From the NCBI GenBank assembly GCA_021805735.1, contig JAJZEE010000002.1, forward strand, positions 284 to 64,283: 64,000 nucleotides of DNA, read 5' to 3'. Below the pieces are notes generated by a model. It saw nothing but the letters and a program-made list of their open reading frames with translations. It searched no databases and was not told the DNA's origin. The stretch is from Bacillota bacterium. GTDB lineage: Bacteria > Bacillota > Bacilli > Alicyclobacillales > SLC66. This document shows, in pieces, positions 40,062 to 64,000 of this stretch (position 1 is the stretch's first letter; each line of letters begins with the position of its first letter). Made by a program: the position numbers and the translations under genes.

Positions 40062-40065
40062 GAGA

Positions 40066-40749: not shown

Positions 40750-40851
40750 ATGTCTGCAGGGAGACGGGAAGCGTATGTACGCCACATGTGAAGTGCAGTA
40801 TACTGCAAATAATTCCTTTCTCGGAAACGGAGCGATGTTAATCAGGAGGGT

Positions 40852-42681
40852 GTGTGTGAAGTGCGCATAGGATGGCGCTCCCCGCGTCTCCGGAATCTTG
40901 CGCTGGGCAGGCCCTATACCATTGGCGCCCAGTGGCCGGATGCGCTGTTCAGCCAGACGGAGCAGCAACAATACCCCGACACCGGACAGCTTACCGATGG
41001 CCATACGGGCGATCTGAACGTGAAGGACCCAGGTTGGATGGGTTTGCTTCGCCAGTATGGACGCAGCATAGTGATCGATCTCGGTCAGGCTCAGGATGTG
41101 CGTTCGGTGGAGTTGCGGTTTTTGCAAAACCTGCGAGCTGGCATCCAGTTTCCTGACGCAGTTCGTTTCTACGCATCTGTAGACGGCGCGCGTTGGCACG
41201 TAGTGGGGGCATGCGGCGATCAGTCGAGACGGGGCGCGGAGACGCCGCAAATCCAGGTCTTTTCCACGGAGATGCACGGTAATGCGCAGTACATGCGGGT
41301 GCAGTTTACGGCCAAAGTATACGCGTTCATGGATGAGTGTTACGTGTACGGATACGTTGGTTCAGATCCCGACGCCGACCCGCTGCCGGGTGTCGGGTTG
41401 ACAGAACTGATGGGCGTCAACTACCTCGTTGATCCCCATTCTCCGAACGCAGGCGGGGTCCTCGGGATACGCCATGCTCCCGCCAGACCCTCCGGTGCAA
41501 CAGCAAGTTCCACTGACAGTTCCGCTTCCGCAGTCATCGTCGATTTCTCGGACACGCGAACCTCCCACCCCCTTCCGGTCGATGGCGCTGAAAAGGGTGA
41601 CGCCCTTTCCATTGCGCCGCCCAGCCAGGACGTTCCGTCAGCATCGGGTTATCTGACTAGTGGACATCCGGTGAGCGGCGGCGTCAACCATATGCAACTC
41701 GTGTACACGGGCTCCGGCGATTCGCTCGGAACGTGGACCGCAGAGGATTTTACACCCATGATTGCGCAGATCGGAGACGATGGTCAGCCCGTTCGATGGC
41801 TGTTTGACGCCACCCTTTTTGGCCCCTATGGGAAGATGCCGACCAGCGCCGCCGCTTGGTCAGCCTGGCTGCATGAGCTGTTTTCTCCCCGCGTCAACCT
41901 GGACGCTCTCGATCAGACCGTAGGGCAACTGAAACAGACCTTCGCTGATCCATACTTCCAGGAGAAAGTTGTACTAACACTTCCGTCGACGATTGCAGGC
42001 CCTGCCGACTTTGGTTCGATTGCTGCGGGAACGGAGTCTCTAAACATGAATCCTGGCGATGTCGGCTTTGAATCTGCGGTTGTCAACAAATTGGAAGCTC
42101 TTCGGTGGATCATGCAGCAGGAGCTAAAGCGATGGCGCCAGACCAATTTGAAACATCTCCAGCTCGCGGGATTCTACTGGAGACCCGAGTCAGTCAACGT
42201 CAATGATCCCTACGATCCATGGCTCATCGAGCAGATAGCGGCCGATGTTCACGCCGAAGGGCTTCGTTTCTACTGGATTCCGTTTTATGGAGCGGTTGGG
42301 GTGACCGTAGCACGGCAATTAGGGTTTGACGCAGTGATGATCCAGCCTAACGTCTCGTTTAACTGGAATATAGACGCACGACAACGGTTGCGATCTGTCA
42401 GTGACATGGCTCAGTTTTATCAGATGGGGGTGGAAATCGAACTGCACTGGGACATCACAAACAGGAACAGTTCAGCGCATGCCCAGACAGCGCTCTCCAG
42501 ATACGACGACTATTTCACTGCAGGCCAGCAGTACGGATACGGGGGCCCTGTGACAAAGGCCTACTACCTGAACTCAAAGTCCCTGGTTCAGTGCAGTCGC
42601 AGTGCTGATCCGCTACCTCGTCAGGCGTATGTCGACACGGTAGCTTTCGTCCGCGATGAGTGGATTCGCGCTGTTCTGTAG
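40852..42681 (+). CDS. Protein with discoidin (F5/8 type C)-like N-domain and DUF4855-like C-domain
   Basis: 609 aa. Contains NLALGRPYT...LTDGHTG...IVIDLG...SVDGARW. The C-terminal part has FYWIPFYGA. The domain names come from memory of family patterns. Confidence 0.55.
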   Translation: MCEVRIGWRSPRLRNLALGRPYTIGAQWPDALFSQTEQQQYPDTGQLTDGHTGDLNVKDPGWMGLLRQYGRSIVIDLGQAQDVRSVELRFLQNLRAGIQFPDAVRFYASVDGARWHVVGACGDQSRRGAETPQIQVFSTEMHGNAQYMRVQFTAKVYAFMDECYVYGYVGSDPDADPLPGVGLTELMGVNYLVDPHSPNAGGVLGIRHAPARPSGATASSTDSSASAVIVDFSDTRTSHPLPVDGAEKGDALSIAPPSQDVPSASGYLTSGHPVSGGVNHMQLVYTGSGDSLGTWTAEDFTPMIAQIGDDGQPVRWLFDATLFGPYGKMPTSAAAWSAWLHELFSPRVNLDALDQTVGQLKQTFADPYFQEKVVLTLPSTIAGPADFGSIAAGTESLNMNPGDVGFESAVVNKLEALRWIMQQELKRWRQTNLKHLQLAGFYWRPESVNVNDPYDPWLIEQIAADVHAEGLRFYWIPFYGAVGVTVARQLGFDAVMIQPNVSFNWNIDARQRLRSVSDMAQFYQMGVEIELHWDITNRNSSAHAQTALSRYDDYFTAGQQYGYGGPVTKAYYLNSKSLVQCSRSADPLPRQAYVDTVAFVRDEWIRAVL

Positions 42682-50126: not shown

Positions 50127-50591
50127 TTGCAGATTGTGATTTTGACCGTCGGCAAGCTAAAGGAAAGGTATTGGCGGGAAGCGGAGGAGGAGTATCGTAA
50201 GAGGCTCCTTGCTCACGCTTCCTGTCTTGTGGAAGCAGTACAGGATGAACCTGACCAGGGCGCGGCGGAGCGCATAAGGGAGACGGAAGCCGGGCGTCTG
50301 CTGGCGAAACTTCGCGAACGGGACCACGTGATCGCTCTGGATTCACGGGGCAAGAAGATGACATCGCAGCACTTTTCCGAATATCTGGGCCTCATGTCCG
50401 CGCGAGGGTATGGCAGGTATGTCTTTGTGATCGGCGGATCGCGAGGTCTCGCGCCCTCCGTGCTTGAGCGGGCCGATCTCACGCTGTCATTTTCCGATTT
50501 CACGTTTCCTCACCAGTTGATGCGAGTCATTCTGCTTGAGCAGATCTATCGGGCGTTTCGTATTCAAACGGGTGCGCCCTATCATAAGTAA
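50127..50591 (+). CDS. rlmH: 23S rRNA (pseudouridine1915-N3)-methyltransferase
   Basis: 154 aa. Contains MQIVILTVGKLKERYWREAEEEYRKRL, FVIGGSRGL, and the ending GAPYHK. Confidence 0.92.
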   Translation: MQIVILTVGKLKERYWREAEEEYRKRLLAHASCLVEAVQDEPDQGAAERIRETEAGRLLAKLRERDHVIALDSRGKKMTSQHFSEYLGLMSARGYGRYVFVIGGSRGLAPSVLERADLTLSFSDFTFPHQLMRVILLEQIYRAFRIQTGAPYHK

Positions 50592-50657: not shown

Positions 50658-51227
50658 TCATTTCCATTCCACTTCCTGCTCTACCCGCACACTGCCGTCT
50701 TCAGACACGCAAAACACTTCAAAATTCATCGCCTTCTTGAGCCAATCAACGCGCGGCAGGAAATTTGCGTAAGTCGCAAAGCCGTCAGGGAGCGCTAAAG
50801 CGAGCTTTGCATCAGTGGATTCCCCTCGGTACAACACAAGGTCGAAAAGGGCTCCAGAGAACCAGTGGCGGGCTTGCACGTTCCTGCTCTTTTCGGGGTA
50901 ACCTTTTGCGCTGACCCAAAGTTCCCTTCCGTCAGGTGAGACAGCCACAATGTCCTTTCCCACTTCACGTGACGCTGTGTTTGCGACGTTTCGTACGGCG
51001 TATCCGGCGTACACAAGGTAAGATACCACCCGAGCCTGGACGTTGCCTTCCCAATACCAGGCGTCGGTTCCTTTCCCTTCGGGTACCCGCGGATGAACCG
51101 ACACTTCCGTTTTGGTTTGAATGCCGTCAGATAGTCGGTTGACAAGTTTGTGTTTCTTGCACAGGGCGCACTTTCCGCGATGGCGATTGATCGACTGCTT
51201 GGTTGGCAAAGTTGTCGGAAAAGGCAT
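50658..51227 (-). CDS. Hypothetical protein, possible restriction-endonuclease-like fold
   Basis: 189 aa. GKDIVAVSPDGRELWVSAKGYPE resembles a D...(E/S)xK nuclease core. The 5' 100 nt overlap the Ig-like pseudogene, so the start is uncertain. Confidence 0.4.
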   Translation of the reverse strand: MPFPTTLPTKQSINRHRGKCALCKKHKLVNRLSDGIQTKTEVSVHPRVPEGKGTDAWYWEGNVQARVVSYLVYAGYAVRNVANTASREVGKDIVAVSPDGRELWVSAKGYPEKSRNVQARHWFSGALFDLVLYRGESTDAKLALALPDGFATYANFLPRVDWLKKAMNFEVFCVSEDGSVRVEQEVEWK

Positions 51228-52223
51228 CCAAAGACCCGACGCCCGCGTAAAGAGATTCGTCAGGCGCCACCGCCAGCGTGTTCGTTCCGCTTGGCACGGA
51301 AAAGGGCTGCCAGATGCTCTGCACGACTGTGATCGCGTAGGTCGCAGTAGCCCCGCCGCTTTGCGCGGTGATTGTGGTAGAGCCGGGGGCAGTTCCGGTC
51401 ACGAGTCCGCTTTGACTGACAGAAGCAACAGCCTGAGTGGACGAGGTCCACGTGACGTCTGCGTCTGGGATGGCGGTTCCAGTGCTGTCCAGGGCTTGCA
51501 GGGTAAGCGTGTGGTTCGTCGCTTGGGGAGAGTTGCTCAGAGTCGCCGCTGTTGCCGTGCCGCCAGATTGTGCGGGCTGGATCGTCACCACTTTTGGCCC
51601 TTGGTGGCGCTTGGCGTGCTAGCGCTGATCGTGATCGACAAAGGGTTTCCCTGGATGGTTTCGCCCAGTTCCTTGACCGTGGGCGTCAAGATGTAGGTCC
51701 CAGCAGCCGTGGCAGTGAGGGTGTTCCCTGTGACGCTCCATTGCTGATTGCTTACTCCAGATGGGGCGACCATTTCGTAGGTGAGTGTGGCGTCAGCCGG
51801 AAGTTGCACGGAATTTCCGGCTCCGTCGAGAAACGTGGGGTTCAGTGTGATCGGAGTTCCCGTGGTCGCCTGTGGCGGCGTCGAAGGCAGCGCGGCGTTG
51901 AGCTTGGTCATGCCGGAACTCGTCAAGGTCACTACGGAGCCACTTTGGGTGAAGTCGGTACCTGCATCCAGCAAGGCTTGCGAACCGGAACCTGATGACC
52001 CGACGGGCGTAATGGCGAGGGCAGTCAGGGTGTCAGTTCCCGCCATGGTGAAAGAAACGCTTGCTGCCGATGCCGCTGTTTCGGCGTATGCTATCGGGTC
52101 ATTGGGGTTTGCCATGAGGATCACGCCTTGGGAGGGCTGGCCCTCCGCTTGCAGCAGAAATGCGGGCGCTGCTGTGGCGCTGACCTGCGCTACGTAAGGG
52201 TTTCCGAGGATTTGGGAGGCCAT
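51127..52223 (-). pseudogene. Frameshifted Ig-like (Big_2-type) surface-protein gene remnant
   Basis: ORFs 51585-52223 and 51127-51591 abut at an A4 run (GGCCAAAAGTGG). Read together they give ...ATKGQK/VVTIQPAQSGGTA.... A Big_2-like repeat is visible (TWTSSTQAVASVSQSGLVTGTAPGSTTITAQSGG). No signal peptide is present. Confidence 0.45.
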
Positions 52224-52556
52224 GATGCGGCAGTGGGCGCGGATGCGACGATCGCAGGCGCTGTACCTGTGGGGAACAGGATAGGCCGGGTTTCCAGGTG
52301 ACGGCGGACGCGTGTGGGGAATGCTGTCGAACGGGCGGGTGACAGTCGTCCGATGGGCAGGCTGACGCGCATTCGGACGTACTGGTCAACACTGGATGCT
52401 GGTCTGTTGGAGAATCCTGTCGGCTGCTGTCGATCTCAGTTTCCAGTGCGCGCTCTCTCGGTCGATTGGAAATTCGATGCGAGATCTCTGTCTTTGAATG
52501 GGAGTCGCAGTCGAAGAAGCGGTCTTAGTCGAAACTATTCTGCTGGATTAACACTC

Positions 52557-52588
52557 AACCCTGCTCAGTAGGCAGGGTTTTTCTGTTT
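52557..52588 (+). terminator. Orphan rho-independent terminator upstream of hsdM
   Basis: AACCCTGC-TCAGTAG-GCAGGGTT followed by TTTCTGTTT. No convincing plus-strand gene ends here. Confidence 0.6.
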
Positions 52589-52694
52589 CGCGTGGAAGTA
52601 GTTATATTGTAAAAGGCACCTTGCGTTACTGAGTCTCCGCAAAGATCCTGTCTTCCAAAACAACGTTAATACATAAGATCAAGGGGAAAAAGAA

Positions 52695-54437
52695 ATGAAC
52701 CAGCAAAACCTTTCCGCTTTCATCTGGTCCGTAGCGGACCTACTCCGTGGAGATTATAAACAGGCCGATTACGGCAAAGTGATTCTGCCGTTTACAGTAC
52801 TGCGTCGACTAGACTGTGTCTTAGAGGAAACCAAGTCAGTGGTGTTGGCACAATACGAAGAGAAGCAGGCGATGGGCATCAATCCCGAGCCGTTCCTCAT
52901 CCGTGAGTCGAAACAGAGCTTCTACAACACCTCTCCGCTAGACATGAAAAAGCTGATGGGCGATCAGGACCACATCCGGGAGAATCTCTACAGCTACATT
53001 CAGACCTTTTCGCCTGCGGTCCGTGACATCTTCGATAGCTTCGAGTTTCATACACAGATTGAGCGTCTCCACAAAGCTGGCCTCCTGTATCAGGTGACCG
53101 AAAAGTTCGCCAACATTGACCTGCACCCGGAGTCCGTTGACAACTACCAGATGGGTCTCGTGTTCGAGGAGTTGATCCGCAAGTTCGCCGAACTGTCCAA
53201 CGAGACCGCCGGGGAGCACTTCACCCCGCGCGAAGTTATCCGGATGATGGTCAACCTGATATTCATTGAAGATGACGACATACTTTCAAAGCCTGGTGTG
53301 GTGCGCACCATCTACGATCCGGCTGCAGGTACGGGCGGGATGCTGTCAGTCGCGGGAGAGTACTTGGCTGAACACAACCCAGAAGCTAGGCTTACAATGT
53401 TCGGCCAAGAGTTGAACCCTGAATCGTACGCGATCTGTAAGGCGGACATGTTGATCAAGGGTCAGGATGTTGCCAACATCGTTTTTGGCAACACCCTGTC
53501 AGAAGATGGTCATTCGGATCGTCACTTTGACTACATGCTCTCGAATCCCCCGTTTGGCGTGGAATGGAAGAAAGTCGAGAAGGAAGTGCGCCAGGAGCAT
53601 GAGCAACAAGGTTTCAACGGACGTTTCGGATCCGGTCTGCCGCGTGTTTCAGACGGTTCCATGCTGTTTTTGCTGCATTTGATCTCCAAGATGCGCCCAG
53701 TGAGCGAAGGGGGCAGCCGACTCGGAATTGTACTGAACGGCTCACCGCTGTTCACTGGCGGCGCTGGTAGCGGGGAGAGCGAGATTCGCCGCTACGTGAT
53801 TGAGAATGACCTGCTTGAGGCCATCGTCGCGTTACCGACCGACATGTTTTACAACACGGGTATCTCGACCTTCATATGGATTGTCTCGAACCGTAAGCCA
53901 GAGCACCGGAAGGGCAAGGTACAACTGATTGACGCGAGCGACATGTGGCAGAAGATGCGAAAGTCTCTCGGAAGCAAGCGAAAGGAGCTCCGGGACGAAC
54001 ACATCGCAGAGATCACGCGACTCTTTGGGAGTTTTGCGGACGCTGGGACGGACGGGAAACCGATCAGCCGGATCTTCCGAAACATTGACTTTGGTTACCG
54101 AACGATCACGGTTGAACGTCCTCTTCGCGACGAGCAGGGCAACATTGTCCTAGGGCAAAAAGGCAAGCTCAAAGGCAAACCGCTGCCCGACCCTAGCCTG
54201 CGTGACAACGAAGACGTGCCGCTAGGGCGGGACATAGAAACATATTTCAAGCGTGAAGTGTTGCCCTATGTGCCGGATGCGTGGATCGATCACGACAAGA
54301 CCAAGGCAGGATACGAGATCCCATTCAATCGGTACTTTTACGTGTTCCAGCCCCCACGCCCGTTGGAGGAGATTGATGTGGAGTTGATGGCTGTAACCGA
54401 ACGCATCAAGGAGATGCTGGAGGGGTTGAGGGCATGA
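52695..54437 (+). CDS. hsdM: Type I restriction-modification system, methyltransferase subunit
   Basis: 580 aa. Contains HsdM_N-like [14 protein letters not shown], motif [11 protein letters not shown], and motif IV NPPFG. Confidence 0.93.
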
Positions 54438-55690
54438 GTGCTTCACGGTATAGCCAGTACAAGGATAGTGGTGTGGACTGGTTAGGTACAATTCCTAAAC
54501 ACTGGGAAGTGGTCCGTAACAAGAACCTGTTCGCTGAGATTGATATACGAAACGAGAAAGATGATGCGGAGCTTCTAAGCGTTTCACATCTAACGGGTGT
54601 CACAAGGCGCTCTGAGAAGAACGTCAATATGTTTCTTGCTGAAACGCTGAAAGGGTACAAGTGCTGTAGCGAAGGAGACCTAGTAATTAACACAATGTGG
54701 GCCTGGATGGGTGCACTCGGTATAACCGCAATAGATGGAGTGGTAAGTCCGTCGTACAATGTGTATCGTCCAAGAAACTTTACCAAATTGCACCCGAGGT
54801 ACTATGACTATTTATCTCGGATCCCGAACCATGTTCGTGTTATTGAAGCTAACTCGACGGGTGTTTGGGAGTCGAGGCTTCGCCTCTACCCTAACACCTT
54901 TTTATCGATGAAAACATGTCTTCCTCCTTATAATGAGCAAATTACCATCGTTGACTTTCTAGATCATGAAACCATCAAGATCGATGCTCTTGTGAAGGAG
55001 CAGGAAAAGCTGCTTGCACTGCTCAAGGAAAAGCGGCAGGTAGTCATCTCTCAAGCAGTTACCAAGGGAATCGATCCCGCTGTGCCGATGAAGGATTCGA
55101 GTATCGAGTGGTTGGAACAGGTCCCGGAGCATTGGGAAGTCAGTTCTTTGAAGCGAATTACCAAGCTAAAAAGTGGTGAGTCCATTACATCTGATAGAAT
55201 TGAAGATCAGGGTCAATATCCAGTATTCGGCGGCAATGGGCTAAGGGGTTATGCAGAGGCCTACACTCACGAAGGTACGTTTGTTTTAATTGGTAGGCAG
55301 GGAGCGTTGTGTGGAAACATCAACTACGCAAACGGGCAGTTCTGGGCATCTGAGCACGCCATAGTGGTATCTCCTCTGATACCGATCGAAACCTTGTGGC
55401 TTGGTGAACTGCTACGTGCAATGAATCTTAATCAGTACTCAATTTCGGCTGCACAACCTGGGCTTTCTGTAGATGTTATCAGGAATCTTTGGATTCCTTT
55501 TCCTCCGATTCAAGAACAGCTTTCCATAGCGGAATACATCCGTATTGAGACCCAAAAGTTTGATTCTTTGATGGTGGAAGCAGAAAACGCTGTAGAACTA
55601 CTTAGAGAACGTCGCATCGCACTAATCTCGGCTGCCGTGACTGGCAAGATAAAAGTTTGCGGACTTGTTGCTGAAGGGGTGATGGCATGA
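54434..55690 (+). CDS. hsdS: Type I R-M specificity subunit
   Basis: 418 aa with two TRDs. Each TRD is followed by a conserved helix ([17 protein letters not shown] and [18 protein letters not shown]). An ATGA overlap joins it to hsdM. Confidence 0.9.
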
Positions 55691-58600
55691 GTCTTCACAA
55701 GGAGGTAGAATTCGAAAACGATATCTGCGATTATCTCTCAGCGCACGGTTGGCTCTACGCAGAAGATGATACGCAACGCTATGACCGTGTACGTGCTCTG
55801 TTCCCAGAAGACCTACGTTCTTGGGTTGAGTCAACCCAGTCGATGGCCTGGGAGGCACTTGTTAAGAACTACGGTTCCGCATCGGAGGCTACTTTACTCG
55901 ATCGGATTCGCAAGCAACTCGATGAACGGGGCACGTTGGATGTGCTGCGCCACGGAATCGAGTTGATCGGCCTGCGCCAGCCACTCCAGTTGGCGCAGTT
56001 TAAACCTGCACTGGCGATGAACCCAGACTTGCAAGCAAAGTACGCTAGCAACCGCCTGCGTGTGGTCCGGCAGGTTCGCTACTCCATACATAACGAAAAC
56101 GCCATCGACTTAGTTCTGTTCCTGAACGGCATTCCTGTTGCCACAGTGGAGCTAAAGAGCGACTTCACACAGAGCGTAGAGGACGCGGTAGATCAGTATC
56201 GTTTTGACCGTGATCCTCGCCCGAAAGGTAAGTCAGCAGAACCTTTACTGGAGTTTCCCGGGGGTGCTTTGGTGCACTTCGCGGTGAGCAATTCCGAAGT
56301 TCGTATGACGACGAAGCTACAGGGCGCGGCTACTTCCTTCTTGCCGCTCAACAGAGGCGACCATGGCGGTGCTGGAAACCCTGTCAACGAGAACGGTCAT
56401 CGCACAGCGTACTTGTGGGAACAGGTGTGGGAACGAAACAGTTGGCTGGAGATCATTGGCCGATATCTGGTCACCGAGCGCAACAGCAAGAAACAGATTG
56501 AGTCGGTCATTTTCCCTCGTTACCACCAGCTTGATGCGACGCGAAAGTTAATTGCCGCTGCATTGAAGGACGGACCGGGACAAAAATACCTCATTCAACA
56601 CTCGGCAGGTTCAGGCAAGACGAACTCCATCGCTTGGACCGCCCACTTTCTCGCGGATCTTCATGATGCTGAGCACAGGAAGCTATTTGACTCGGTACTG
56701 GTCGTTAGCGATCGGAACGTGTTGGATGCTCAGTTGCAAGAAGCCATCTTCGATTTTGAACGGACGGCGGGTGTGGTGGCCACGATCAAAGGTGAGTCTC
56801 GGAGCAAGAGCGAGGAGTTGGCAACCGCGCTGTCGGGTGGGAAGAAGATCGTCGTCTGCACCATTCAGACGTTTCCCTTCGCTTTGAAGGCCGTGCAGGA
56901 ACTTGCGGCAACTCAGGGTAAGCGTTTTGCGGTCATCGCCGACGAGGCGCACAGTTCGCAGACGGGTGAGGCGGCCTCCAAGCTCAAGCAGGTGCTGTCG
57001 GCTGAGGAGCTTCAGGAGTTGGCGGATGGTGGCGTGGTGAGCACCGAAGACCTGCTCGCAGCGCAGATGGCTGGGCGGGCCAACGTGTCAGGCCTCACGT
57101 TTGTGGCTTTCACGGCCACGCCGAAGGCAAAGACGCTGGAACTGTTTGGGCGACGCCCCAACCCTGAGTTGCCTGCTGGAGAAGACAATCTACCCGCGCC
57201 CTTCCACGTTTACGGGATGCGACAAGCCATTGAAGAAGGCTTCATTTTGGACGTGCTGAAAAACTACACGCCGTACAGTCTTGCGTTCAAGCTGGCAAAT
57301 GACGGACAGGAGAGGGACCAAACCGAAGTCGAGCGCAGCGCAGCCATGAAGGGGATCATGCGTTGGGTTCGACTGCATCCATATAACATCGCACAGAAGG
57401 TACAAGTGGTGGTCGAGCACTTCCGAGAGAACGTCGCCCCACTCCTGAACGGACATGCGAAGGCGATGGTCGTCGTGGCAAGCCGTCTGGAAGCGGTCCG
57501 ATGGCAGAAGGCTATCGAGAAGTACATCAGGGACCAGCGATACAAAATCGGTACGCTCGTTGCATTCTCCGGTGAGGTGAACGATGCGGAATCCAGTCTG
57601 GAACCGTTCACCGAAAATAGTAAGGCACTGAACCCTAACCTAAACGGTCGCGACATTCGGGAGGCGTTCTCCACCCGGGAATACCAGATCCTGCTCGTAG
57701 CAAACAAGTTCCAGACCGGGTTCGATCAGCCGCTGCTGTGCGGGATGTACGTGGATAAGAGACTCGCGGGCATCCAGGCCGTGCAGACCCTGTCTCGGCT
57801 GAATCGCTCCTACCGGGGTTCTCACGGTTTAAAGGATACTACCTATATCCTGGACTTCGTGAACGATCCTGACGAAGTCCTAAAGTCGTTCAAGCCTTAC
57901 TACGAAACAGCGGAACTGGCGGGGGTAACAGACCCTGACCTTGTGTTCAACCTTAGGGCGAAGCTGGATGCTACTGGTTACTATGACGACAATGAGATAG
58001 AACGTGTTGTTTCCGTTGAGTTGAATCCCAGAGCCTTGCAGTCTGAACTCGCCGCGGCGCTGGAGCCTGTGGCGGATCGCCTGCTCAGGAAGTACAAGTC
58101 GGCTCGATCCACACTTGAGGTGGTACGGGCAAAGCAAGAAAGAAACGCAGAGCAGCACGCTCAGAACGAGATCAACGCGTTGATCCTGTTTAAGAGGGAC
58201 ATTGGTGCTTTCTTGAGGGTATATGCGTTTCTATCACAAATTTTTGACTACGGGAACACCGCGATCGAGAAGCGGGCTATCTTCTTCAAACGCCTTCTTC
58301 CTCTCCTTGAGTTTGGCAGAGAGAGGGACGTCATTGACTTCTCCAAGATGGTACTGACCCATCACAGGTTGAACGATAAGGGGAGTCGAGACTTGCCGCT
58401 TGGTAAGGGCGACATCGTCAAGTTGCCGCCGCTCACTGATCCGGGGACTGGGGAGGTACAGGAAACTGAGAAGGCGCTGTTGGCTGAGATTATCGCCAAA
58501 GTGAATGACATTTTTGAGGGAGACCTGACCGACGACGACAAGTTGGTTTATGTGAACAACGTGTTAAAGGGCAAGTTGCTTGAGTCGGAAGTACTTGTGC

Positions 58601-58827
58601 AGCAGGCCGCCAACAACACGAAGGAGCAGTTCGCCAATTCTCCAGACCTGTCTAACGAGTTGATGAATGCCATCATGGATGCTTTCGCGGCACATACGAC
58701 CATGAGCAAGCAGGCCCTCAACTCTGAAAAAGTGCGCCATGCAATCAAAGAGATTCTTCTGGGGCCAGCACAGTTATACGAGGCACTACGCTCGCGCGGC
58801 GACGCGCATGCTATCAATCTCGACTAG
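55687..58827 (+). CDS. hsdR: Type I R-M restriction (helicase-nuclease) subunit
   Basis: 1046 aa. Contains Walker A HSAGSGKTNS and the DEAH box IADEAHSSQ. An ATGA overlap joins it to hsdS. Confidence 0.93.
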   Translation: MSLHKEVEFENDICDYLSAHGWLYAEDDTQRYDRVRALFPEDLRSWVESTQSMAWEALVKNYGSASEATLLDRIRKQLDERGTLDVLRHGIELIGLRQPLQLAQFKPALAMNPDLQAKYASNRLRVVRQVRYSIHNENAIDLVLFLNGIPVATVELKSDFTQSVEDAVDQYRFDRDPRPKGKSAEPLLEFPGGALVHFAVSNSEVRMTTKLQGAATSFLPLNRGDHGGAGNPVNENGHRTAYLWEQVWERNSWLEIIGRYLVTERNSKKQIESVIFPRYHQLDATRKLIAAALKDGPGQKYLIQHSAGSGKTNSIAWTAHFLADLHDAEHRKLFDSVLVVSDRNVLDAQLQEAIFDFERTAGVVATIKGESRSKSEELATALSGGKKIVVCTIQTFPFALKAVQELAATQGKRFAVIADEAHSSQTGEAASKLKQVLSAEELQELADGGVVSTEDLLAAQMAGRANVSGLTFVAFTATPKAKTLELFGRRPNPELPAGEDNLPAPFHVYGMRQAIEEGFILDVLKNYTPYSLAFKLANDGQERDQTEVERSAAMKGIMRWVRLHPYNIAQKVQVVVEHFRENVAPLLNGHAKAMVVVASRLEAVRWQKAIEKYIRDQRYKIGTLVAFSGEVNDAESSLEPFTENSKALNPNLNGRDIREAFSTREYQILLVANKFQTGFDQPLLCGMYVDKRLAGIQAVQTLSRLNRSYRGSHGLKDTTYILDFVNDPDEVLKSFKPYYETAELAGVTDPDLVFNLRAKLDATGYYDDNEIERVVSVELNPRALQSELAAALEPVADRLLRKYKSARSTLEVVRAKQERNAEQHAQNEINALILFKRDIGAFLRVYAFLSQIFDYGNTAIEKRAIFFKRLLPLLEFGRERDVIDFSKMVLTHHRLNDKGSRDLPLGKGDIVKLPPLTDPGTGEVQETEKALLAEIIAKVNDIFEGDLTDDDKLVYVNNVLKGKLLESEVLVQQAANNTKEQFANSPDLSNELMNAIMDAFAAHTTMSKQALNSEKVRHAIKEILLGPAQLYEALRSRGDAHAINLD

Positions 58828-59045
58828 AGTGGCACCAAATTTCAGATAACTGATGTCCGGGCCTCTCACAGGAAAGATTGTTTCGCTTATTATCAAAATA
58901 TGGTACTCTACTAATTGACGTTTTGCAGCCCAGTATACACAAGTAGTGTGGCAATGCAATATTCAAGGAGCATAAGAACTCTAAGCCCAAAAGAAAGCCT
59001 GGTTCTACAAATTTATCTAAGAAGCCAGTTGATATTGTTTACGGG

Positions 59046-59471
59046 GTGAGAACGTTGGCGAAAGTGAATAATGCCTGGCCGAGATCCTTCCCGCCAAGTT
59101 GCCCACCAATTAAAGCGGCAAAACGAGCGGTCAAAGTGTATAGACTAGTTGCATCAGATACTATTAAACCCAAGGACTTCGTTGCAAAGGGATTTCGGCG
59201 TCAATTTTACGCAGAATGTGCGTGCGAGGAATTTGCACTGTCAGTATTGGAAAAAAGCGGTGATCTGCATGTTGCTCGGCAGTATTTTTCCACCATCGGC
59301 ATGGCGAAACTGAATAAGGCCGCAGTAGGGTTTATCACCGCAGAGAGTGGTAGAGTGTCGGAAGGACCGAGTAACAACGTGGGTAAATCACACTTGAATT
59401 GGTGGACATATGAAGGGATCGAACCCCATACGTTTTTTAGTGAGATACTCCGGATCGGAGTGGATATTTAG
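59046..59471 (+). CDS. Hypothetical small basic protein (cassette gene A)
   Basis: 141-aa ORF in the AT-rich segment. The start is uncertain (GTG 59046, TTG 59055, or GTG 59064). No family recognised. Confidence 0.5.
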   Translation: MRTLAKVNNAWPRSFPPSCPPIKAAKRAVKVYRLVASDTIKPKDFVAKGFRRQFYAECACEEFALSVLEKSGDLHVARQYFSTIGMAKLNKAAVGFITAESGRVSEGPSNNVGKSHLNWWTYEGIEPHTFFSEILRIGVDI

Positions 59472-60670
59472 TGTGTGGGAAATTTTTCACCCCCATTGGC
59501 GAATTAAATATCATTGATGTGCTTTTCTATTACGACGGGCCTCGCATCTTTATAGGCCAAAACGAAGCATCGAAGTTTTTGGGATTTTTGGTCGATGAAA
59601 TTGATGAGTGGGATCAGTGGCTATTCGCTCCCGTTTCTAAGGAAAGAGTTTCGCAAATAAAAAAGGGCATCATTTCCATAAGAGAGGCTCTTCTAAATGT
59701 TGAAGACGGTTGGGTCTTTGAAATTAAGCTTCCGGTAATAGAGAAAGCTTCCGCCACCGTCGAACTGCTTAGGCCCCAAGATATACCATTGCAGTATCTA
59801 CCTCAAGAAGAGTCATATATCAAAGTGGGCGAGGAAAATGATACAGTACAGACTGCCAACGAACTTCCAAATAAGAGAGCCTCAACACTTGAAGAGGCAG
59901 TTGAGAGTTCTAGAGATGTTTTGGATATATCTATAAGTGGATTCGAAGATGAACACGAACTAAGCTGCGAAAGGGCTGGTAACACCCTAAGATCTTATCA
60001 AATGTTGGCTTATTCATTAGACTCAAGGTGGAAACAGAATCAAAAGAGACCACCACATGATGTGATTCACGATAATGCTGCGAACCTTACAGCTCTTTTC
60101 GCGGCTTCGTTCGGAATTAGAATCAAGTCAAGGCAACATTCTGGTCTTTTTAAGGACACTGACGCAACTGCTGCTATTAGGCGGTTGTCGAAGCTCGTTT
60201 CATCTAGTCAAGACAAAGACAATTTGAGAGCTCATCTTAAAACCCTTACTCCTAGAGCAGCTGCTTGGTATCAAAGGTTTTTGGAGAATTTCAGGGAAGA
60301 TACAGCACAACTAAAATTGGAATGGGCCTCCCCTAACAGGGACCATGACTCCACAATACTAACTCGGACTCAGTTGCTTACGGCATACGATATTCTTAAA
60401 GAAACTACTGAGACCACTGTCAAACTTGAATTGGAAGGGACACTTATTGCAATAAACCTCAAGAGGAACACATTTTATATTGTGTGTGACGATGATAATT
60501 ACTATTCCGGAGCCTTGTCACACGAGATCGTAAACCAGGTCTCAAAAGGGTACACCTTTGAAGTTCCAATGCCTGTGTGTGCAATCGTTGAGTCAAGAGA
60601 GGTCCTAAATTTGTCGACTGAAATGATAAACACTTCGTACAAACTTTTGGCAATCAGGCCGATATCCTGA
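59471..60670 (+). CDS. Hypothetical protein (cassette gene B)
   Basis: 399-aa ORF. Its GTG start shares 1 nt with the gene A stop (TAGTG). No family recognised. Confidence 0.55.
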   Translation: MCGKFFTPIGELNIIDVLFYYDGPRIFIGQNEASKFLGFLVDEIDEWDQWLFAPVSKERVSQIKKGIISIREALLNVEDGWVFEIKLPVIEKASATVELLRPQDIPLQYLPQEESYIKVGEENDTVQTANELPNKRASTLEEAVESSRDVLDISISGFEDEHELSCERAGNTLRSYQMLAYSLDSRWKQNQKRPPHDVIHDNAANLTALFAASFGIRIKSRQHSGLFKDTDATAAIRRLSKLVSSSQDKDNLRAHLKTLTPRAAAWYQRFLENFREDTAQLKLEWASPNRDHDSTILTRTQLLTAYDILKETTETTVKLELEGTLIAINLKRNTFYIVCDDDNYYSGALSHEIVNQVSKGYTFEVPMPVCAIVESREVLNLSTEMINTSYKLLAIRPIS

Positions 60671-61016
60671 AGCGAATTACTGCGTTCTAATTGGAACGCG
60701 TGCCTTAATCGAATGAATAGCAGATTGCGATCACGTATTGGACCATTCTTCCGGCAGAGGTCGCGGTTTTGTCTGATCACTAATCGTCGGACACAGGCAC
60801 ATCTGGGAATGGCGGCGGAAACAGCCGTATGGGGGGATTTACCTTATACCCTTATGCATGTTTGTAAGCGGGAACCGGAGTGACAGCGTTGAACAGATCC
60901 TGAATGGAAGGTCGAACGAAATCCCTACTCACAACTAAAGTCTATTCGGCAAAGTTCGGTATGCGTAAAATGGCCCTCACCGAAAAGACAAGGTGGGGGT
61001 GCTATTCTACGCATTT

Positions 61017-62990
61017 TTAGTCTTCAATCCTTACGTCGGTCGCAACTTGCTGGCCGCTCTTATATGGGTTATCTTGAATCACATATGAGACCAACCTGCC
61101 AGCTAAAGTTGAAAAGTCTAGATGCGAATTTGCTTTAGAGTGAAAGAACACATCATCGGGAGACCGTTGAATGAACCCATATTGCAGGCCGTACCGGTCA
61201 CTTAGTATCTTTCTAACAATCCCAGTGTCTCGCAAAGGTTTTTGCTTCTTATTTGAGGTCTGCTGAATGAGTAGTTGCGTAAATTCAGACACGTCTTTAA
61301 TACCATGAATGCTTCTACCCATTTCATTTGCCCAGATGTCCTTACAGTGATTCAATATCCCCAATGCCCTTTTTATGATGCTGACGGAATCCCCAGTGAT
61401 TTCTGCGATCAATTTGTTGCAGTATATATCTATTTCTTTTTCCTTGTGAATGCTAGGCATGTTTGGGTCAATGAGTTCCCTAACAACTGTCAACACGTGA
61501 TACTTGAGATTCTTGTTTTCGCGAGCTAGTTGGCTATTATTTTCGCGCAAGAATTTCTCCAGGAAATAGACCGCCAACCCTGTCGTGAAGTAGGGCAATT
61601 TGGAGTGCTTTTCGAGAAAAACTTTGTTACGATAGTCGCGCAGTAAACGAGATTCGTGGCGGTATGCAGCTTCTGGTTCATTGAGAAACATGGCAACAAA
61701 GCCTTGAATAAGAGTACGAAAGCTAAGCTTTTGAGTCTGTTTTATCGTCGGAGTCGCGTGGTATTGCTTTGAGCGGCGCTCGTAGTACAGGAGAACAGGC
61801 CCTCCCATACTCGGGAAGAATTCTTCAAGCTCTTTGTGGAAATCCCGTATTGTTTCAAATGCCTCGTCATAAACGATATTCTGTTTATTTGTGCCACGTA
61901 CCACCTGCCCTGTTATGTGGTCATCCTTTGTAGCGATTATCTTGACACTAACTGGTACCTTCGAAATATCGAATCCCTTTTCCTTCGAAAAGTAGATCAT
62001 ATGACTGGTCTGGCATCCATTAACAATCTGTGGATTAACCAGGGTAATCTTTCTGTTGTTGGTCTTGTACTCATCACACACAATAGTTATTCCGTTATTT
62101 AGGAGGACAAATTTCTGCGGCTCCGCAGATATTGTATGTTCAATTTCTTCGTTGATGGAGGTTTCACCCTGGAAATCCCTCACATTATCATTGAACAGTG
62201 ACTTACGGATAATACCGTCAGGGGTTCGTATCAGCTTGTCAATTTCGGCTGCATTGCAAAGAGCCATGCAAGAATTGTCTACGCTTTCAACAGGGGTGAG
62301 TGGCATGGAATCAATCACTTCAATAATTTCCGTGTAATGGTTCACATTATTGTCACAGATATCCTTAAGGCCTTTGCTGTCGATGAGGTGAATGTGCATC
62401 TCTTCATACACATTCATTGAACGGATGTCATCAATAAAGCGGTCGTTGAGACCGTCTATGTGAGGAAGATCCTGTTTGATCCCCATTGTAACGTAGTATA
62501 AGCGTATGGAAGGGTTTTGTTCCCAAATAATCATGATATCTTCACTGAGGATATAATCCTTGATATCCAACATGTGCATTATGGAGTCGTTCATTGGTTG
62601 CAAATGTGTCTCTGCCAGGAAGTCTCTGACCCCAGTTGCGAAGTTGTTATACTCGCCCATGTTGAATTTGTCCTTGTACTTTGATTGAATGAAAATAAAC
62701 TCTACAGACGCTTTCTTATTACGGGCCACTAGGGCGTCGACATCTTCCTTGTCTCTGACGAAGACACCGTTTAGCTTAATCCCGATCCCGTCAATGGCAA
62801 GGTCATTACTTCCCCCTACACTGCACAAATCCAAGAAGTCACTGTTTCCCAAAAACGGTTCTGGGCTATGAGCATATAAAACGTTGAAATTTACAAAGCG
62901 TTCAAATGCAGTACCATCACTCATATCTACTAATCCGTACTGTTCACGAAAACGCTTAAATCGAGCATTGATGACTGGCTCAAACTGCAT
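61017..62990 (-). CDS. AIPR-family abortive-infection protein with C-terminal cold-shock-like domain
   Basis: 657 aa. Contains LAIDGIGIKLNG, FIFIQSKYKDKF, and the hallmark IVNGCQTSHMIY. The C-terminus reads GIVRKIL...YGFIQRSPDDVFFHSKA...GRLVSYVIQ. Confidence 0.85.
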   Translation of the reverse strand: MQFEPVINARFKRFREQYGLVDMSDGTAFERFVNFNVLYAHSPEPFLGNSDFLDLCSVGGSNDLAIDGIGIKLNGVFVRDKEDVDALVARNKKASVEFIFIQSKYKDKFNMGEYNNFATGVRDFLAETHLQPMNDSIMHMLDIKDYILSEDIMIIWEQNPSIRLYYVTMGIKQDLPHIDGLNDRFIDDIRSMNVYEEMHIHLIDSKGLKDICDNNVNHYTEIIEVIDSMPLTPVESVDNSCMALCNAAEIDKLIRTPDGIIRKSLFNDNVRDFQGETSINEEIEHTISAEPQKFVLLNNGITIVCDEYKTNNRKITLVNPQIVNGCQTSHMIYFSKEKGFDISKVPVSVKIIATKDDHITGQVVRGTNKQNIVYDEAFETIRDFHKELEEFFPSMGGPVLLYYERRSKQYHATPTIKQTQKLSFRTLIQGFVAMFLNEPEAAYRHESRLLRDYRNKVFLEKHSKLPYFTTGLAVYFLEKFLRENNSQLARENKNLKYHVLTVVRELIDPNMPSIHKEKEIDIYCNKLIAEITGDSVSIIKRALGILNHCKDIWANEMGRSIHGIKDVSEFTQLLIQQTSNKKQKPLRDTGIVRKILSDRYGLQYGFIQRSPDDVFFHSKANSHLDFSTLAGRLVSYVIQDNPYKSGQQVATDVRIED

Positions 62991-63183
62991 GTACTATCAT
63001 CCTCTCATGGCGTCGTTTATCAGTATCGAAGTGTGTAGTTCTGGTAGTATTGTTATCTCCTAGCCATAATATAGCATTCTACGGACAGAGTATCTACAGA
63101 TATTACCCTAATGCAAGTGTATGGAGGCAATTCAAACCGGTCAGATCGGTTTACGGAGTGGCTGCCGCCTTGCCATCTATAGC

Positions 63184-63317
63184 CTAGAAATCCGTCCGAT
63201 GGAATAAAAAAACGTATATTTATTCGGATTCAGCAGATTTGTGCGACGTGAATCCGCGTACATACGCTTTGAGTGGACTAATATGCACAAAAATCGTTTC
63301 GTCGGACGGACTTCTAG
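63184..63317. repeat. Nested inverted repeats upstream of the AIPR gene
   Basis: The outer 16-nt arms, 63184-63199 and 63302-63317, are complementary at 15 of 16 positions. The inner 8-bp arms are CGGATTCA (63225-63232) and TGAATCCG (63249-63256). Confidence 0.75.
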
Positions 63318-63650
63318 AATAATTTTCAAAGCTGCGTTCGTGCAGACCACATGAGTACGATCGTCACTACCAGTCAAAAACACCATCCAACCCCAGCTCG
63401 CCAAGTGCAAGCGAGGGTTGGGTTTTGAATGTGTCTAGTGAGTGAGGTATAAGACCTCGTGGGGAGCAAAGGGTACGGTGGCCCCGCTTGTCAAGACATT
63501 TTTTTGACCCTCGCTAAGCTATACCCAGGTAAGTCTGTCAAGGTACGCTTTCCAGCCTTGACGGACGGCTCATCACCTCCCACACTGAATGGTAGTGGTC
63601 GAAGCCACGCACTTGTGGATTCGGCCCTAGAGACAGATCTGTGCTGTCTT

Positions 63651-64000
63651 TCAGGCAGTCGCCAAGCTGGATAGAACCTTTGGCTTGACAGGAAGTGGAT
63701 CTGTCGGTTTCATCCCCTCCAGATAGATTTCCGCTGGAGTGTGGTACCGCAGTGATTGGTGGGGCCGTTCGTGATTGTACATTTGTATAAACCGCCCAAT
63801 GCTGATCCTCGCCTCACGGGGACTAGCGTACTCTTTGGTGTAAACCTCTTCGTACTTGATCGTCCGCCAAAACCGCTCTGTGAAAATGTTGTCCAGCGCT
63901 CGATTTTTCCCATCCATGCTGATCTGAACGCCTGCATCCCTTAGCAGTTCAATGTACCGAGGACTCGTGAAATGGCTCCCCTGGTCGCTGTTCATGATCT
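63651..64000 (-). mobile_element. IS3-family transposase OrfB (rve/DDE domain), C-terminal part; gene continues past the window end
   Basis: NSDQGSHFTSPRYIELL...NIFTERFWRTIKYEEVY...YNHERPHQSL is a typical IS3 integrase-core C-terminus. A possible IS terminus (TGTGGATTCGGCCC) lies near 63613. Confidence 0.85.

What the first reader, a model, noticed from the sequence alone, without database searches (positions are those of the whole stretch)
59046..60670. Unassignable, translationally coupled two-gene cassette between a Type I R-M system and an AIPR abortive-infection gene
Seen:
- ORF-A is 141 aa, basic and Cys-containing. It carries the strings WPRSFPPSCPPIKAAKRAVKVYRLV..PKDF and KSHLNWWTYEG.
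- ORF-B is 399 aa. It has an acidic N-module with DVLFYYDGPRIFIGQNE, a long helical middle, and a beta-looking C-module (LELEGTLIAINLKRNTFYIV).
- The two ORFs share one nucleotide: TAG/GTG within TAGTG at 59469-59473. This indicates coupled translation.
- By eye I find no Walker A, DEAD/H, HNH, HEPN Rx4-6H, TIR/SIR2 or DDE signature in either protein.
- My spot counts of single 60-nt lines give about 37-47% G+C from roughly 58.9 to 63 kb. A walK line gives about 57%. The segment therefore looks horizontally acquired.

Established: defence genes cluster in islands. Here the neighbours are hsdMSR (upstream, same strand) and AIPR (convergent).

Inference: a small basic protein plus a larger partner in this context fits an effector or toxin paired with a sensor or antitoxin. 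This is the best candidate in the window for an undescribed anti-phage or TA-like system.
Basis: partly seen in the sequence, partly recalled or inferred. Interest (0 to 1): 0.75.

Follow-up and report, generated by a model that had tools for sequence, protein, structure and literature searches.

The report
Divergent PD-T4-10-type toxin–antitoxin defence pair
The two overlapping genes are real and conserved, but they are a distant relative of PD-T4-10, an experimentally validated two-gene toxin–antitoxin phage-defence system whose biochemical mechanism is still unknown, so they are not an unassignable new system.

Summary
ORF-A (59046/59055–59471) and ORF-B (59471–60670) overlap by one base. 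They lie in a low-GC segment between a Type I R-M system and an AbiU/AIPR gene.

"Unassignable" does not hold.
- ORF-B has a DUF6575 N-domain (Pfam 6e-18), which is also the N-terminal third of the PADLOC PD-T4-10_B model (8.7e-12). Its C-terminal half matches the untested candidate PDC-M63B (3e-8). Its C-terminus most likely ends in an OB-fold (Foldseek prob 1.0).
- ORF-A matches no library model directly. Its profile recovers 1,689 cluster representatives. Of the 150 best, 94 match PD-T4-10_A and no other PADLOC family.
- In every locus I sampled, across Bacillota, Actinomycetota, Cyanobacteriota and Enterobacterales, an A-like gene sits directly upstream of a DUF6575 gene.

In E. coli PD-T4-10, B is the toxin and A neutralises it (Vassallo 2022). 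The most likely mechanism here is that A masks B through its DUF6575 domain until phage infection.

One open lead remains. ORF-A has an invariant Ser and His, near-invariant Arg/Asp/Cys, and repeated sub-threshold ART/RES-fold matches, so it may be an enzyme.

Verdict: new variant of a known kind, moderate interest.

The parts
59046..59471 (+). ORF-A, 141 aa from GTG 59046, or more likely 138 aa from TTG 59055. It is a small basic protein (pI 9.5) and a divergent member of the PD-T4-10_A superfamily, so it is the putative neutralising (antitoxin) partner. Superfamily-conserved residues: C19 (59100-02), R33 (59142-44), D44, C60, S66 (59241-43), H116 (59391-93), W119/W120.
   Evidence: conservation; PD-T4-10_A link through relatives: 94 of 150; column statistics; AF2 pLDDT 88.3; pI, start context
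59457..59473 (+). Coupling junction. The GGAG Shine-Dalgarno for B is embedded in A's conserved C-terminal IGVDI codons, followed by the TAG/GTG one-base stop/start overlap.
   Evidence: (the same aTAGGAGnGGAyATATA-ATG junction in L001, L004, L005, L007, L010, L012, L013)
59471..60670 (+). ORF-B, 399 aa, acidic (pI 5.1), a three-module protein and the putative toxin/effector.
   Evidence: nine full-length homologues at 42-49% identity; AF2 pLDDT 79.7
59495..59833 (+). ORF-B residues 9-121: the DUF6575 domain, equivalent to the N-terminal third of PD-T4-10_B. It is acidic (pI 4.6) and is the inferred docking module for ORF-A.
   Evidence: PF20215, 6e-18, 65.5 bits against a cutoff of 26.6; profile positions 10-123 of 218; PD-T4-10_B 8.7e-12, profile positions 16-141 of 353; A/DUF6575 adjacency
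59885..60400 (+). ORF-B residues ~139-310: a central alpha/beta module (pI 8.7) carrying the invariant RDVLDI and SFGIRIKS motifs. Together with the C-terminal module it corresponds to the body of PDC-M63B. Its function is unknown.
   Evidence: (PDC-M63B matches; in relatives up to profile positions 54-306 of 309)
60404..60661 (+). ORF-B residues 312-397: the predicted OB-fold (beta-beta-beta-alpha-beta-beta) with invariant K331, R332, N333, T334, F335, Y345, S346, G347.
   Evidence: secondary structure, pLDDT about 90; Foldseek against PDB: SSB Rim1, IF1 and the ExoVII OB domain, prob 0.99-1.00, E 4e-3 to 3e-2. Assigning the matches to the C-terminal module is inferred from topology, because the tool does not report query ranges.
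52695..58827 (+). Context: Type I R-M operon hsdM (52695-54437), hsdS (54434-55690), hsdR (55687-58827).
61017..62990 (-). Context: convergent AbiU/AIPR abortive-infection gene with a weak C-terminal cold-shock-like domain.

Best explanation
The cassette is a divergent member of the PD-T4-10 family of two-gene toxin-antitoxin / abortive-infection systems.

- ORF-A and ORF-B are made in a fixed ratio by translational coupling. B's ribosome-binding site lies inside A's last codons, and the stop and start codons share a base.
- ORF-B is the growth-arresting effector. It is built from an acidic DUF6575 N-domain, a central alpha/beta module and a C-terminal OB-fold.
- ORF-A is a compact basic protein that binds B, most likely on the DUF6575 domain, and keeps it inactive.
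- Phage infection either depletes or displaces A, or supplies a ligand (ssDNA, RNA or a phage protein) for B's OB-fold. That frees B, which acts on a nucleic-acid-linked process and aborts the infection.

Shown here: homology, architecture, coupling, and conserved pairing in variable defence or mobile contexts.
Shown only for the E. coli homologue: B is toxic, A neutralises it, and the system gives Abi protection against T-even phages.
Inferred: the A-DUF6575 contact, the role of the OB-fold, and the trigger.
For: - **ORF-B domains.** Pfam DUF6575 at 6e-18. PADLOC PD-T4-10_B at 8.7e-12 on residues 11-137, and PDC-M63B at 3e-8 on residues 236-395.
- **ORF-A family.** Close relatives P0013 and P0018 (47-55% identical) and distant relatives P0019 and P0020 hit PD-T4-10_A at 1e-4 to 1e-5. 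A profile of the A family finds 1,689 cluster representatives. Of the best 150, 94 hit PD-T4-10_A (best 2e-12) and no other PADLOC family.
- **Pairing.** Every A-like gene whose neighbourhood I inspected is followed at once by a DUF6575 gene, in about 20 distinct loci from 4 phyla, including plasmids of Oscillatoria, Arthrobacter, Pantoea and Bacillus mycoides. One locus has A plus a stand-alone 131-aa DUF6575 (L021). This points to DUF6575 as the module that travels with A.
- **Coupling.** The junction is conserved.
- **Charge.** A has pI 9.5 and the DUF6575 domain pI 4.6.
- **Experiment on the family.** PD-T4-10 is two overlapping ORFs; B is toxic, A neutralises it and cannot be deleted, and deleting B abolishes T4 resistance (PMC9519451).
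- **OB-fold.** Foldseek prob 1.0 to SSB, IF1 and the ExoVII OB domain.
- **Context.** Defence or mobile neighbourhoods here and in homologues, and low G+C.
Against: - ORF-A itself does not reach the PD-T4-10_A model even at E<=1. The link is transitive.
- ORF-B matches only positions 16-141 of 353 in the PD-T4-10_B model and 10-123 of 218 in Pfam DUF6575. Two thirds of B is therefore not demonstrably the same as the tested E. coli toxin, so toxicity may not transfer.
- PDC-M63, whose B protein shares the body of ORF-B, gave no phage phenotype when deleted in E. coli NILS69.
- ORF-A is atypical for a passive antitoxin. It has an invariant Ser and His and near-invariant Cys, Arg and Asp. It is at least as conserved as B. 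It has no DNA-binding domain, and there is no operator palindrome upstream.
- The OB module is acidic overall (pI 4.7), which is unusual for a nucleic-acid binder.
- No experiment exists for this clade.
Confidence: 0.5

Rival explanations
1. Same family and same polarity, but ORF-A is an enzyme. It would be an ART/RES-like fold that neutralises B catalytically by covalently modifying it, as in type VII TA systems such as MntA/HepT, rather than by stoichiometric binding.
For: - Superfamily-wide invariance of S66 and H116 (150/150) and near-invariance of C19, R33, D44, W119 and W120.
- R33, S66 and H116 fall in the strands predicted at 29-35, 65-68 and at the start of 116-121. That is the order and placement of the R / S-T-S / E-x-E positions of R-S-E ADP-ribosyltransferases (my own knowledge of the fold).
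- The best-probability Foldseek hits in two libraries are repeatedly ART-fold proteins: RES toxin 9r35_D at rank 1, CNFy 6yhl, ScARP 5zj4 (TM 0.44), the toxin 8gug_A (VPA0770, TM 0.43; RES-type from my memory, not checked), Agrobacterium 6b, and DarT plus two named ARTs in BFVD.
- A is as conserved as B.
- Precedent for enzymatic antitoxins: PMC7641770 and PMC11586414.
Against: - All structural matches are below significance (PDB E>=1.1, prob<=0.10; BFVD best E 0.039; TM<=0.45).
- The catalytic Glu of ARTs is absent, with His in its place.
- None of the 150 superfamily members hits a Pfam ART or RES family.
- The Cys and His residues could instead form a structural metal site.
Confidence: 0.2
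2. Reversed polarity. The small basic ORF-A would be the toxic effector, for example an NAD-consuming or ADP-ribosylating RES/ART-like enzyme. ORF-B would be its sensor or antitoxin, holding it through the DUF6575 domain and releasing it when the OB-fold senses phage nucleic acid.
For: - Catalytic-looking invariant residues in A.
- Weak but recurrent RES, DarT and ART structural hits, all of which are toxins.
- B has a multi-domain, sensor-like architecture with an OB-fold.
Against: - For the only tested family member, B is toxic on its own and A neutralises it, and A cannot be deleted.
- The gene order, with the small gene first and translationally coupled, is the usual antitoxin-then-toxin order.
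- The structural evidence is sub-threshold.
Confidence: 0.1
3. The pair is a toxin-antitoxin addiction module that only stabilises the mobile island or plasmids it rides on, with no anti-phage role in this host.
For: - Homologues occur on plasmids and next to integrases and recombinases.
- Deleting PDC-M63AB gave no phage phenotype.
- The low-GC segment is flanked by an IS3-family transposase.
Against: - PD-T4-10 gives strong Abi protection against T-even phages.
- The cassette repeatedly neighbours bona fide defence genes: R-M types I and III, GmrSD, HEPN, AbiU and a retron.
Confidence: 0.12

Closest known systems
PD-T4-10 (Vassallo et al. 2022, Nat Microbiol; PADLOC models PD-T4-10_A and PD-T4-10_B; E. 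coli ECOR65 RCO36089.1/RCO36088.1)
   Same: - Two same-strand overlapping ORFs, with the small A gene first.
- B begins with the DUF6575 domain.
- The A family is linked to PD-T4-10_A by profile searches (94 of the 150 nearest cluster representatives).
- It sits in defence or mobile contexts.
- The biochemical mechanism is unknown in both.
   Different: - ORF-A is too diverged to hit the PD-T4-10_A model directly.
- ORF-B matches only the first ~40% of the PD-T4-10_B model and the first half of Pfam DUF6575. The remaining ~260 residues match PDC-M63B instead and end in an OB-fold.
- The host is a ~53% G+C Bacillota organism, not E. coli.
- PADLOC-type rules, which need both genes to match, would probably not call it.
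- No experiment exists for this clade.
PDC-M63 (PADLOC 'phage defence candidate', two genes A and B; experimentally untested, no phenotype in E. coli NILS69)
   Same: The central and C-terminal modules of ORF-B and its homologues align to most of the PDC-M63B model. That is profile positions 153-308 of 309 for ORF-B, and 54-306 for the Cohnella phaseoli homologue.
   Different: - PDC-M63B has no detectable DUF6575 N-domain.
- Neither ORF-A nor any of the 150 A-superfamily members matches a PDC-M63A model, so the partner gene is different.
Type VII toxin-antitoxin systems (HepT/MntA) and ART-fold toxin systems (Xre-RES, DarTG)
   Same: - A two-gene coupled module.
- ORF-A has enzyme-like invariant polar residues.
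- ORF-A gives weak fold resemblance to RES, DarT and ART proteins.
   Different: - No significant sequence or fold match.
- No catalytic Glu.
- In Xre-RES and DarTG the ART-fold protein is the toxin, whereas in PD-T4-10 the A protein is the neutraliser.
- There is no HEPN, MNT, macrodomain or Xre partner.

Membership tests
PD-T4-10 | Two adjacent same-strand ORFs that overlap, with the small A gene upstream of the larger B gene | tested here: met
   one-base TAG/GTG overlap, 141 (or 138) aa followed by 399 aa, conserved in homologues.
PD-T4-10 | The A protein matches the PD-T4-10_A model directly | tested here: not met
   ORF-A gives no PADLOC hit at E<=1. One search gives the same result.
PD-T4-10 | The A protein belongs to the same homologous superfamily as PD-T4-10_A (transitive test) | tested here: met
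   relatives at 47-55% identity hit at 1e-4, and relatives at 31% identity hit at 1.2e-5; 94 of the 150 best profile hits match PD-T4-10_A (best 2e-12), and no other family is matched.
PD-T4-10 | The B protein contains DUF6575 | tested here: met
   PF20215, 65.5 bits against a gathering cutoff of 26.6, residues 9-121. Only profile positions 10-123 of 218 are covered.
PD-T4-10 | The B protein matches the PD-T4-10_B model over most of its length | tested here: not met
   ORF-B and all its homologues cover only profile positions ~13-141 of 353.
PD-T4-10 | B is toxic, A neutralises it, and the system gives Abi protection against phage | not testable with these tools
   Known only for E. coli ECOR65 PD-T4-10 (PMC9519451).
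PDC-M63 | The B protein matches PDC-M63B | tested here: inconclusive
   3e-8, but only profile positions 153-308 of 309. Relatives extend to positions 54-306. The DUF6575 N-domain is additional.
PDC-M63 | The partner protein matches PDC-M63A | tested here: not met
   no PDC-M63A hit for ORF-A or for any A-superfamily member.
ADP-ribosyltransferase / RES fold (for ORF-A) | A significant fold match (TM>=0.5 or a significant Foldseek E-value) to ART or RES structures | tested here: not met
   ART-fold hits recur, but with TM 0.31-0.48 (either normalisation), PDB E>=1.1, and 0.18 for the best named ART in BFVD.
ADP-ribosyltransferase / RES fold (for ORF-A) | A catalytic triad (R-S-E, H-Y-E or R-E-S) | tested here: inconclusive
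   R33 and S66 are conserved at the expected strands, but the third position holds an invariant His116 rather than Glu. The mapping is inferred from secondary structure, not from a superposition.
Classical type II TA | An antitoxin with a DNA-binding domain (HTH, RHH or AbrB) and operator repeats in the promoter | tested here: not met
   no such domain; no inverted repeat in 58780-59100.
Type III TA (RNA antitoxin) | A repeat-RNA antitoxin upstream of the toxin | tested here: not met
   no Rfam family in 58000-64000; no inverted repeats upstream (direct or tandem repeats were not searched for).
OB-fold (ORF-B C-terminus) | A five-stranded barrel with beta1-3 / alpha / beta4-5 topology and a fold match to OB proteins | tested here: met
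   strands 312-329, 334-339 and 344-349, helix 351-358, strands 367-380 and 386-397, pLDDT about 90; prob 0.99-1.00 to SSB, IF1 and the ExoVII OB domain.

The most novel reading that the evidence does not exclude
ORF-A may represent a large family that has no Pfam or NCBIfam model, with at least 1,689 clusters at 50% identity. Its members would be ART/RES-like enzymes with a non-canonical Arg-Ser-His (plus Cys) active site. They would act as catalytic antitoxins, covalently modifying and silencing a DUF6575/OB-fold toxin. That would make PD-T4-10-type systems the first ART-fold 'type VII' toxin-antitoxin defence systems.
Probability: 0.15. Interest if true: 0.7.

Novelty: new variant of a known kind. 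Interest (0 to 1): 0.4.

Why it matters
PD-T4-10 is a validated anti-phage TA system with no known mechanism, and neither of its proteins had any recognisable similarity when it was described. This locus and its relatives add four things.

- The family reaches well beyond E. coli, into Bacillota, Actinomycetota, Cyanobacteriota and plasmids. In this form, current PADLOC models would probably miss it.
- The A-plus-DUF6575 pair is the constant core of the system.
- The effector most likely ends in an OB-fold, and it shares its body with the orphan candidate PDC-M63B.
- The 'antitoxin' has an enzyme-like or metal-site-like set of invariant residues.

Together these give concrete, testable handles on an unsolved defence mechanism: point mutants, domain truncations and nucleic-acid binding assays. 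The locus does not reveal a new class of system.

Tried and rejected
- **Direct library scans of ORF-A** against Pfam, NCBIfam, PHROGs and PADLOC found nothing meaningful. The best was tagatose kinase at E 0.045, which I take as chance.
- **PDB sequence searches** with both family profiles gave only chance-level hits at E>0.5.
- **STING_LBD** hit in ORF-B (E 0.056, 13 bits against a cutoff of 27): rejected as chance.
- **Prophage structural or regulatory origin:** ORF-B has no tblastn match in 50,697 phage records, and PHROGs gave only one weak unknown-function hit.
- **RNA antitoxin or riboregulator:** no Rfam family and no inverted repeats.
- **Promoter and terminator scans:** no more sites than expected from shuffles, so they are uninformative.
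- **Recovering the canonical E. coli PD-T4-10 locus for a direct profile-profile comparison:** the Pantoea homologue's DNA finds nothing in 5,426 E. coli genomes, that collection has no protein mode, and the accessions (RCO36089.1/RCO36088.1) cannot be fetched here. Whether canonical PD-T4-10B has the same C-terminal body therefore stays open.
I repeated it with admissible sequences.
- **ART/RES membership of ORF-A:** considered and kept only as a lead, because no match reaches significance.
Full report
**1. The observation**

ORF-A runs 59046..59471 (GTG, 141 aa) and ORF-B runs 59471..60670 (GTG, 399 aa), both on the + strand. The G at 59471 is shared between A's TAG stop and B's GTG start, and a GGAG lies 10 nt upstream.

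G+C per kb is 0.42-0.44 from 59 to 63 kb. The adjacent hsdMSR genes are at 0.49-0.56 and the window average is about 0.53.

The neighbours are as described.
- hsdM, hsdS and hsdR are confirmed by Pfam and PADLOC.
- The convergent 657-aa gene is AIPR (Pfam 5e-47) and AbiU (PADLOC 3e-107).

Two small corrections follow from the homologue alignments.
- ORF-A most likely starts at TTG 59055 (138 aa). The homologues are 138-140 aa, P0002 starts at that residue, and GGGGTGA precedes it.
- The database's 111-aa version (P0001) is too short, because it removes the conserved WP..FP..CPP segment.

**2. The genes are real and form a conserved pair**

ORF-B has nine full-length relatives at 42-49% identity, in Paenibacillus, Pseudalkalibacillus, Cohnella, Neobacillus, Exiguobacterium and metagenomes.

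In every one of their loci a 138-140 aa ORF ends exactly where B starts. Those ORFs are 46-70% identical to ORF-A.

The junction is conserved at the DNA level. A's invariant C-terminal IGVDI codons carry the GGAG for B, and the stop and start codons overlap as TAATG or TAGTG. Translational coupling is therefore a conserved feature of the family and not an accident of this window.

**3. What ORF-B is**

- Pfam finds DUF6575 on residues 9-121 (6e-18, well above the cutoff).
- PADLOC finds PD-T4-10_B on residues 11-137 (8.7e-12), covering only profile positions 16-141 of 353.
- PADLOC finds PDC-M63B on residues 236-395 (3e-8).
- The same split holds for all homologues. In the Cohnella phaseoli protein the PDC-M63B match covers profile positions 54-306 of 309.

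AlphaFold2 on the nine-sequence alignment gives pLDDT 79.7, and about 90 over residues 240-399. The model has three parts: a beta-rich N-domain, a central alpha/beta module, and a C-terminal beta-beta-beta-alpha-beta-beta unit.

Foldseek against the PDB returns OB-folds with probability 0.99-1.00: the mitochondrial SSB Rim1, bacterial SSBs, IF1 and the ExoVII OB domain. I assign these to residues 312-397 from the topology, because the tool does not report query ranges.

That module carries the invariant K331-R332-N333-T334-F335 and Y345-S346-G347.

Sequence searches of the PDB gave nothing.

**4. What ORF-A is**

ORF-A matches no model directly in any library, and only two close relatives were found at first. 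A profile of the family changes that picture.
- It retrieves further members, and distant ones (31% identity) that hit PADLOC PD-T4-10_A at 1.2e-5. Two members at 47-55% identity hit at about 1e-4.
- Searching the profile against 1.84 billion cluster representatives gives 1,689 hits at E<=1e-3 and 636 at E<=1e-10.
- Of the best 150, 94 match PD-T4-10_A (best 2e-12). None matches any other PADLOC model, any NCBIfam model, or a meaningful Pfam family.

ORF-A is therefore a divergent member of a large family for which the only existing model is PD-T4-10_A.

**5. A and DUF6575 travel together**

I inspected the neighbourhood of A-like genes wherever I could. In all of them the next gene is a DUF6575 protein or a full-length ORF-B homologue, either overlapping or within a few bases.
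- Bacillales loci
- Desulfosporosinus
- Two metagenomic distant members
- Plasmids of Oscillatoria, Arthrobacter, Pantoea and Bacillus mycoides
- Four further distant representatives

Variants exist. B is split into two or three ORFs in L008 and L020. In L021, A is paired with a stand-alone 131-aa DUF6575.

The constant core is thus A plus the DUF6575 domain. The PDC-M63B-like body, which in PDC-M63 pairs with an unrelated A protein, is the variable cargo.

From this, and from the charge complementarity (A pI 9.5, DUF6575 domain pI 4.6), I infer that DUF6575 is the module that A binds.

**6. What is known experimentally**

Vassallo et al. 2022 found PD-T4-10 in E. coli ECOR65 by functional selection (PMC9519451).
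- It consists of two overlapping ORFs, and neither had a predicted function.
- B, which carries DUF6575, is toxic when expressed alone.
- Co-expressing A fully neutralises that toxicity, and A cannot be deleted.
- Deleting B abolishes T4 resistance.
- Defence is abortive and strong against T-even phages.

Their HHpred tables show no significant hit for either protein. A 2024 survey still lists the system as having unknown function.

PDC-M63AB is an untested PADLOC candidate. Deleting it in E. coli NILS69 gave no phage phenotype.

**7. Most likely mechanism**

By homology and architecture the cassette is a PD-T4-10-type TA/Abi module. B is the effector and A the neutraliser, made at a fixed ratio by coupling. 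A masks B through the DUF6575 domain. Infection releases B, whose central and OB modules then act on a nucleic-acid-linked process.

The homology, pairing, coupling and context are shown here. Toxicity, neutralisation and Abi are shown only for the E. coli relative. The contact surface, the OB function and the trigger are inference. I put this at about 0.5.

**8. The open lead: ORF-A looks like more than a passive antitoxin**

Conservation across 150 superfamily members:

| Residue | Conserved in |
|---|---|
| S66, H116 | 150/150 |
| P20, W120 | 149 each |
| C19, G102 | 148 each |
| F45 | 147 |
| R33, D44 | 143 each |
| W119 | 142 |
| C60 | 131 |
| C63 | 91 |

- ORF-A is at least as conserved as B between the same genomes.
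- It is a compact alpha/beta protein (pLDDT 88.3).
- It has no DNA-binding domain, and there is no operator palindrome upstream.
- R33, S66 and H116 lie in strand 29-35, in strand 65-68 and at the start of strand 116-121. That is the order of the R / S-T-S / E-x-E positions of R-S-E ADP-ribosyltransferases (my own knowledge of that fold).

In both structure libraries, the hits with the highest probabilities among named proteins are ART-fold proteins.
- PDB: RES toxin (rank 1), CNFy, ScARP, the VPA0770 toxin, Agrobacterium 6b
- BFVD: DarT and two ARTs

All of these matches are below significance (TM<=0.45, PDB E>=1.1, BFVD best 0.039), and the catalytic Glu is replaced by His. This is a hypothesis and not a classification.

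It gives two rivals to the main model: a catalytic, type VII-like antitoxin (0.2), and a reversed-polarity system in which A is the toxin (0.1).

A third rival is that the pair is only an addiction module for the island (0.12).

**9. Comparison and novelty**

The cassette shares the defining layout of PD-T4-10: a small A gene, an overlapping B gene, DUF6575, and the A superfamily.

It fails two membership tests as the models currently stand. ORF-A does not hit PD-T4-10_A directly. ORF-B covers only about 36% of the PD-T4-10_B model, and the rest is PDC-M63B-like.

Whether the canonical PD-T4-10B has the same body, diverged beyond detection, could not be tested, because I could not retrieve its sequence.

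I therefore classify it as a new variant of a known kind.

Close full-length relatives are rare, in 5 of 185,579 species representatives. The wider A family is large.

**10. Verdict**

It is a remote relative of a named and validated system, so it is not an undescribed one.

The interest is moderate (0.4). The value lies in the new structural and evolutionary handles on an unsolved mechanism, not in a new class of system.

Noticed in passing
window 50127-50591 (rlmH) and everything downstream to 64000; L004 639-1118; L026/L027: The whole island lies directly downstream of rlmH (SPOUT methyltransferase, Pfam 1.8e-50). It comprises unknown ORFs, Big_2 fragments, hsdMSR, the A/B pair, AbiU and an IS3-family transposase. 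In Cohnella endophytica the homologous A/B pair also lies about 4.5 kb downstream of an rlmH gene. The 3' end of rlmH (orfX) is the SCCmec integration site in staphylococci (my own knowledge), so this may be a conserved integration hotspot in Bacillota.
   Followed up: partly
window 61017-62990 (-), residues 603-653: The AbiU/AIPR protein carries a weak C-terminal cold-shock-domain match (Pfam CSD 3.9e-4, below the cutoff; PADLOC CSD_V 0.014). Two adjacent convergent defence genes may therefore both end in OB-type folds.
   Followed up: no
window 59000-63000 versus 52000-59000: The G+C step divides the island. hsdMSR is at 0.49-0.56, while the A/B pair and AbiU are at 0.42-0.44. This suggests two separate acquisitions within one island.
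   Followed up: partly
window 29000-42000: A 13-kb stretch with clearly higher G+C (0.57-0.63) than the rest of the window (about 0.50-0.55). I did not examine it.
   Followed up: no
window 50658-51227 (-), 51127-51591 (-), 51585-52223 (-): A 189-aa ORF directly after rlmH has no Pfam or PADLOC hit. It is followed by two ORFs with Big_2 / CBM_X2-like fragments that look like remnants of a surface protein. ORF calls differ between near-identical contigs (L026 versus L027).
   Followed up: partly
window 63651-63995 (-); L026 13516-14713: A partial IS3-family transposase (rve_3, 3.6e-17) sits at the window edge. In the full contig it is a complete HTH_Tnp_1 plus rve pair that bounds the low-GC segment.
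   Followed up: partly
L008 6503-7676; L020 4434-5602; L021 54-831: Architectural variants of the B gene. It is split into 2-3 consecutive ORFs (DUF6575, then M63B-like pieces) in two loci. In another locus a minimal A plus stand-alone 131-aa DUF6575 pair has nothing downstream. I could not tell whether the splits are frameshifts or genuine multi-subunit versions.
   Followed up: partly
P0053 (243 aa), P0059, P0073, P0129, P0133, P0153; L024 226-957: Some A-superfamily members carry N-terminal extensions of 50-110 residues. Three of the 150 hit Pfam Zn_ribbon_11 weakly. L024's extended A is still followed by a full-length B homologue.
   Followed up: partly
L019 3947-4351 (Mycobacteroides abscessus plasmid pGD21-2): A stand-alone 134-aa DUF6575 protein gives the best PD-T4-10_B N-terminal hit (1.8e-12). 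It lies in a run of small same-strand hypothetical genes with no annotated A-like gene upstream, so DUF6575 can occur without A.
   Followed up: no
window 59136 (alternative GTG start); P0001: Public gene calls for ORF-A disagree (111 aa versus 141 aa). The 111-aa call removes the nearly invariant Cys19 and the CPP motif.
   Followed up: yes
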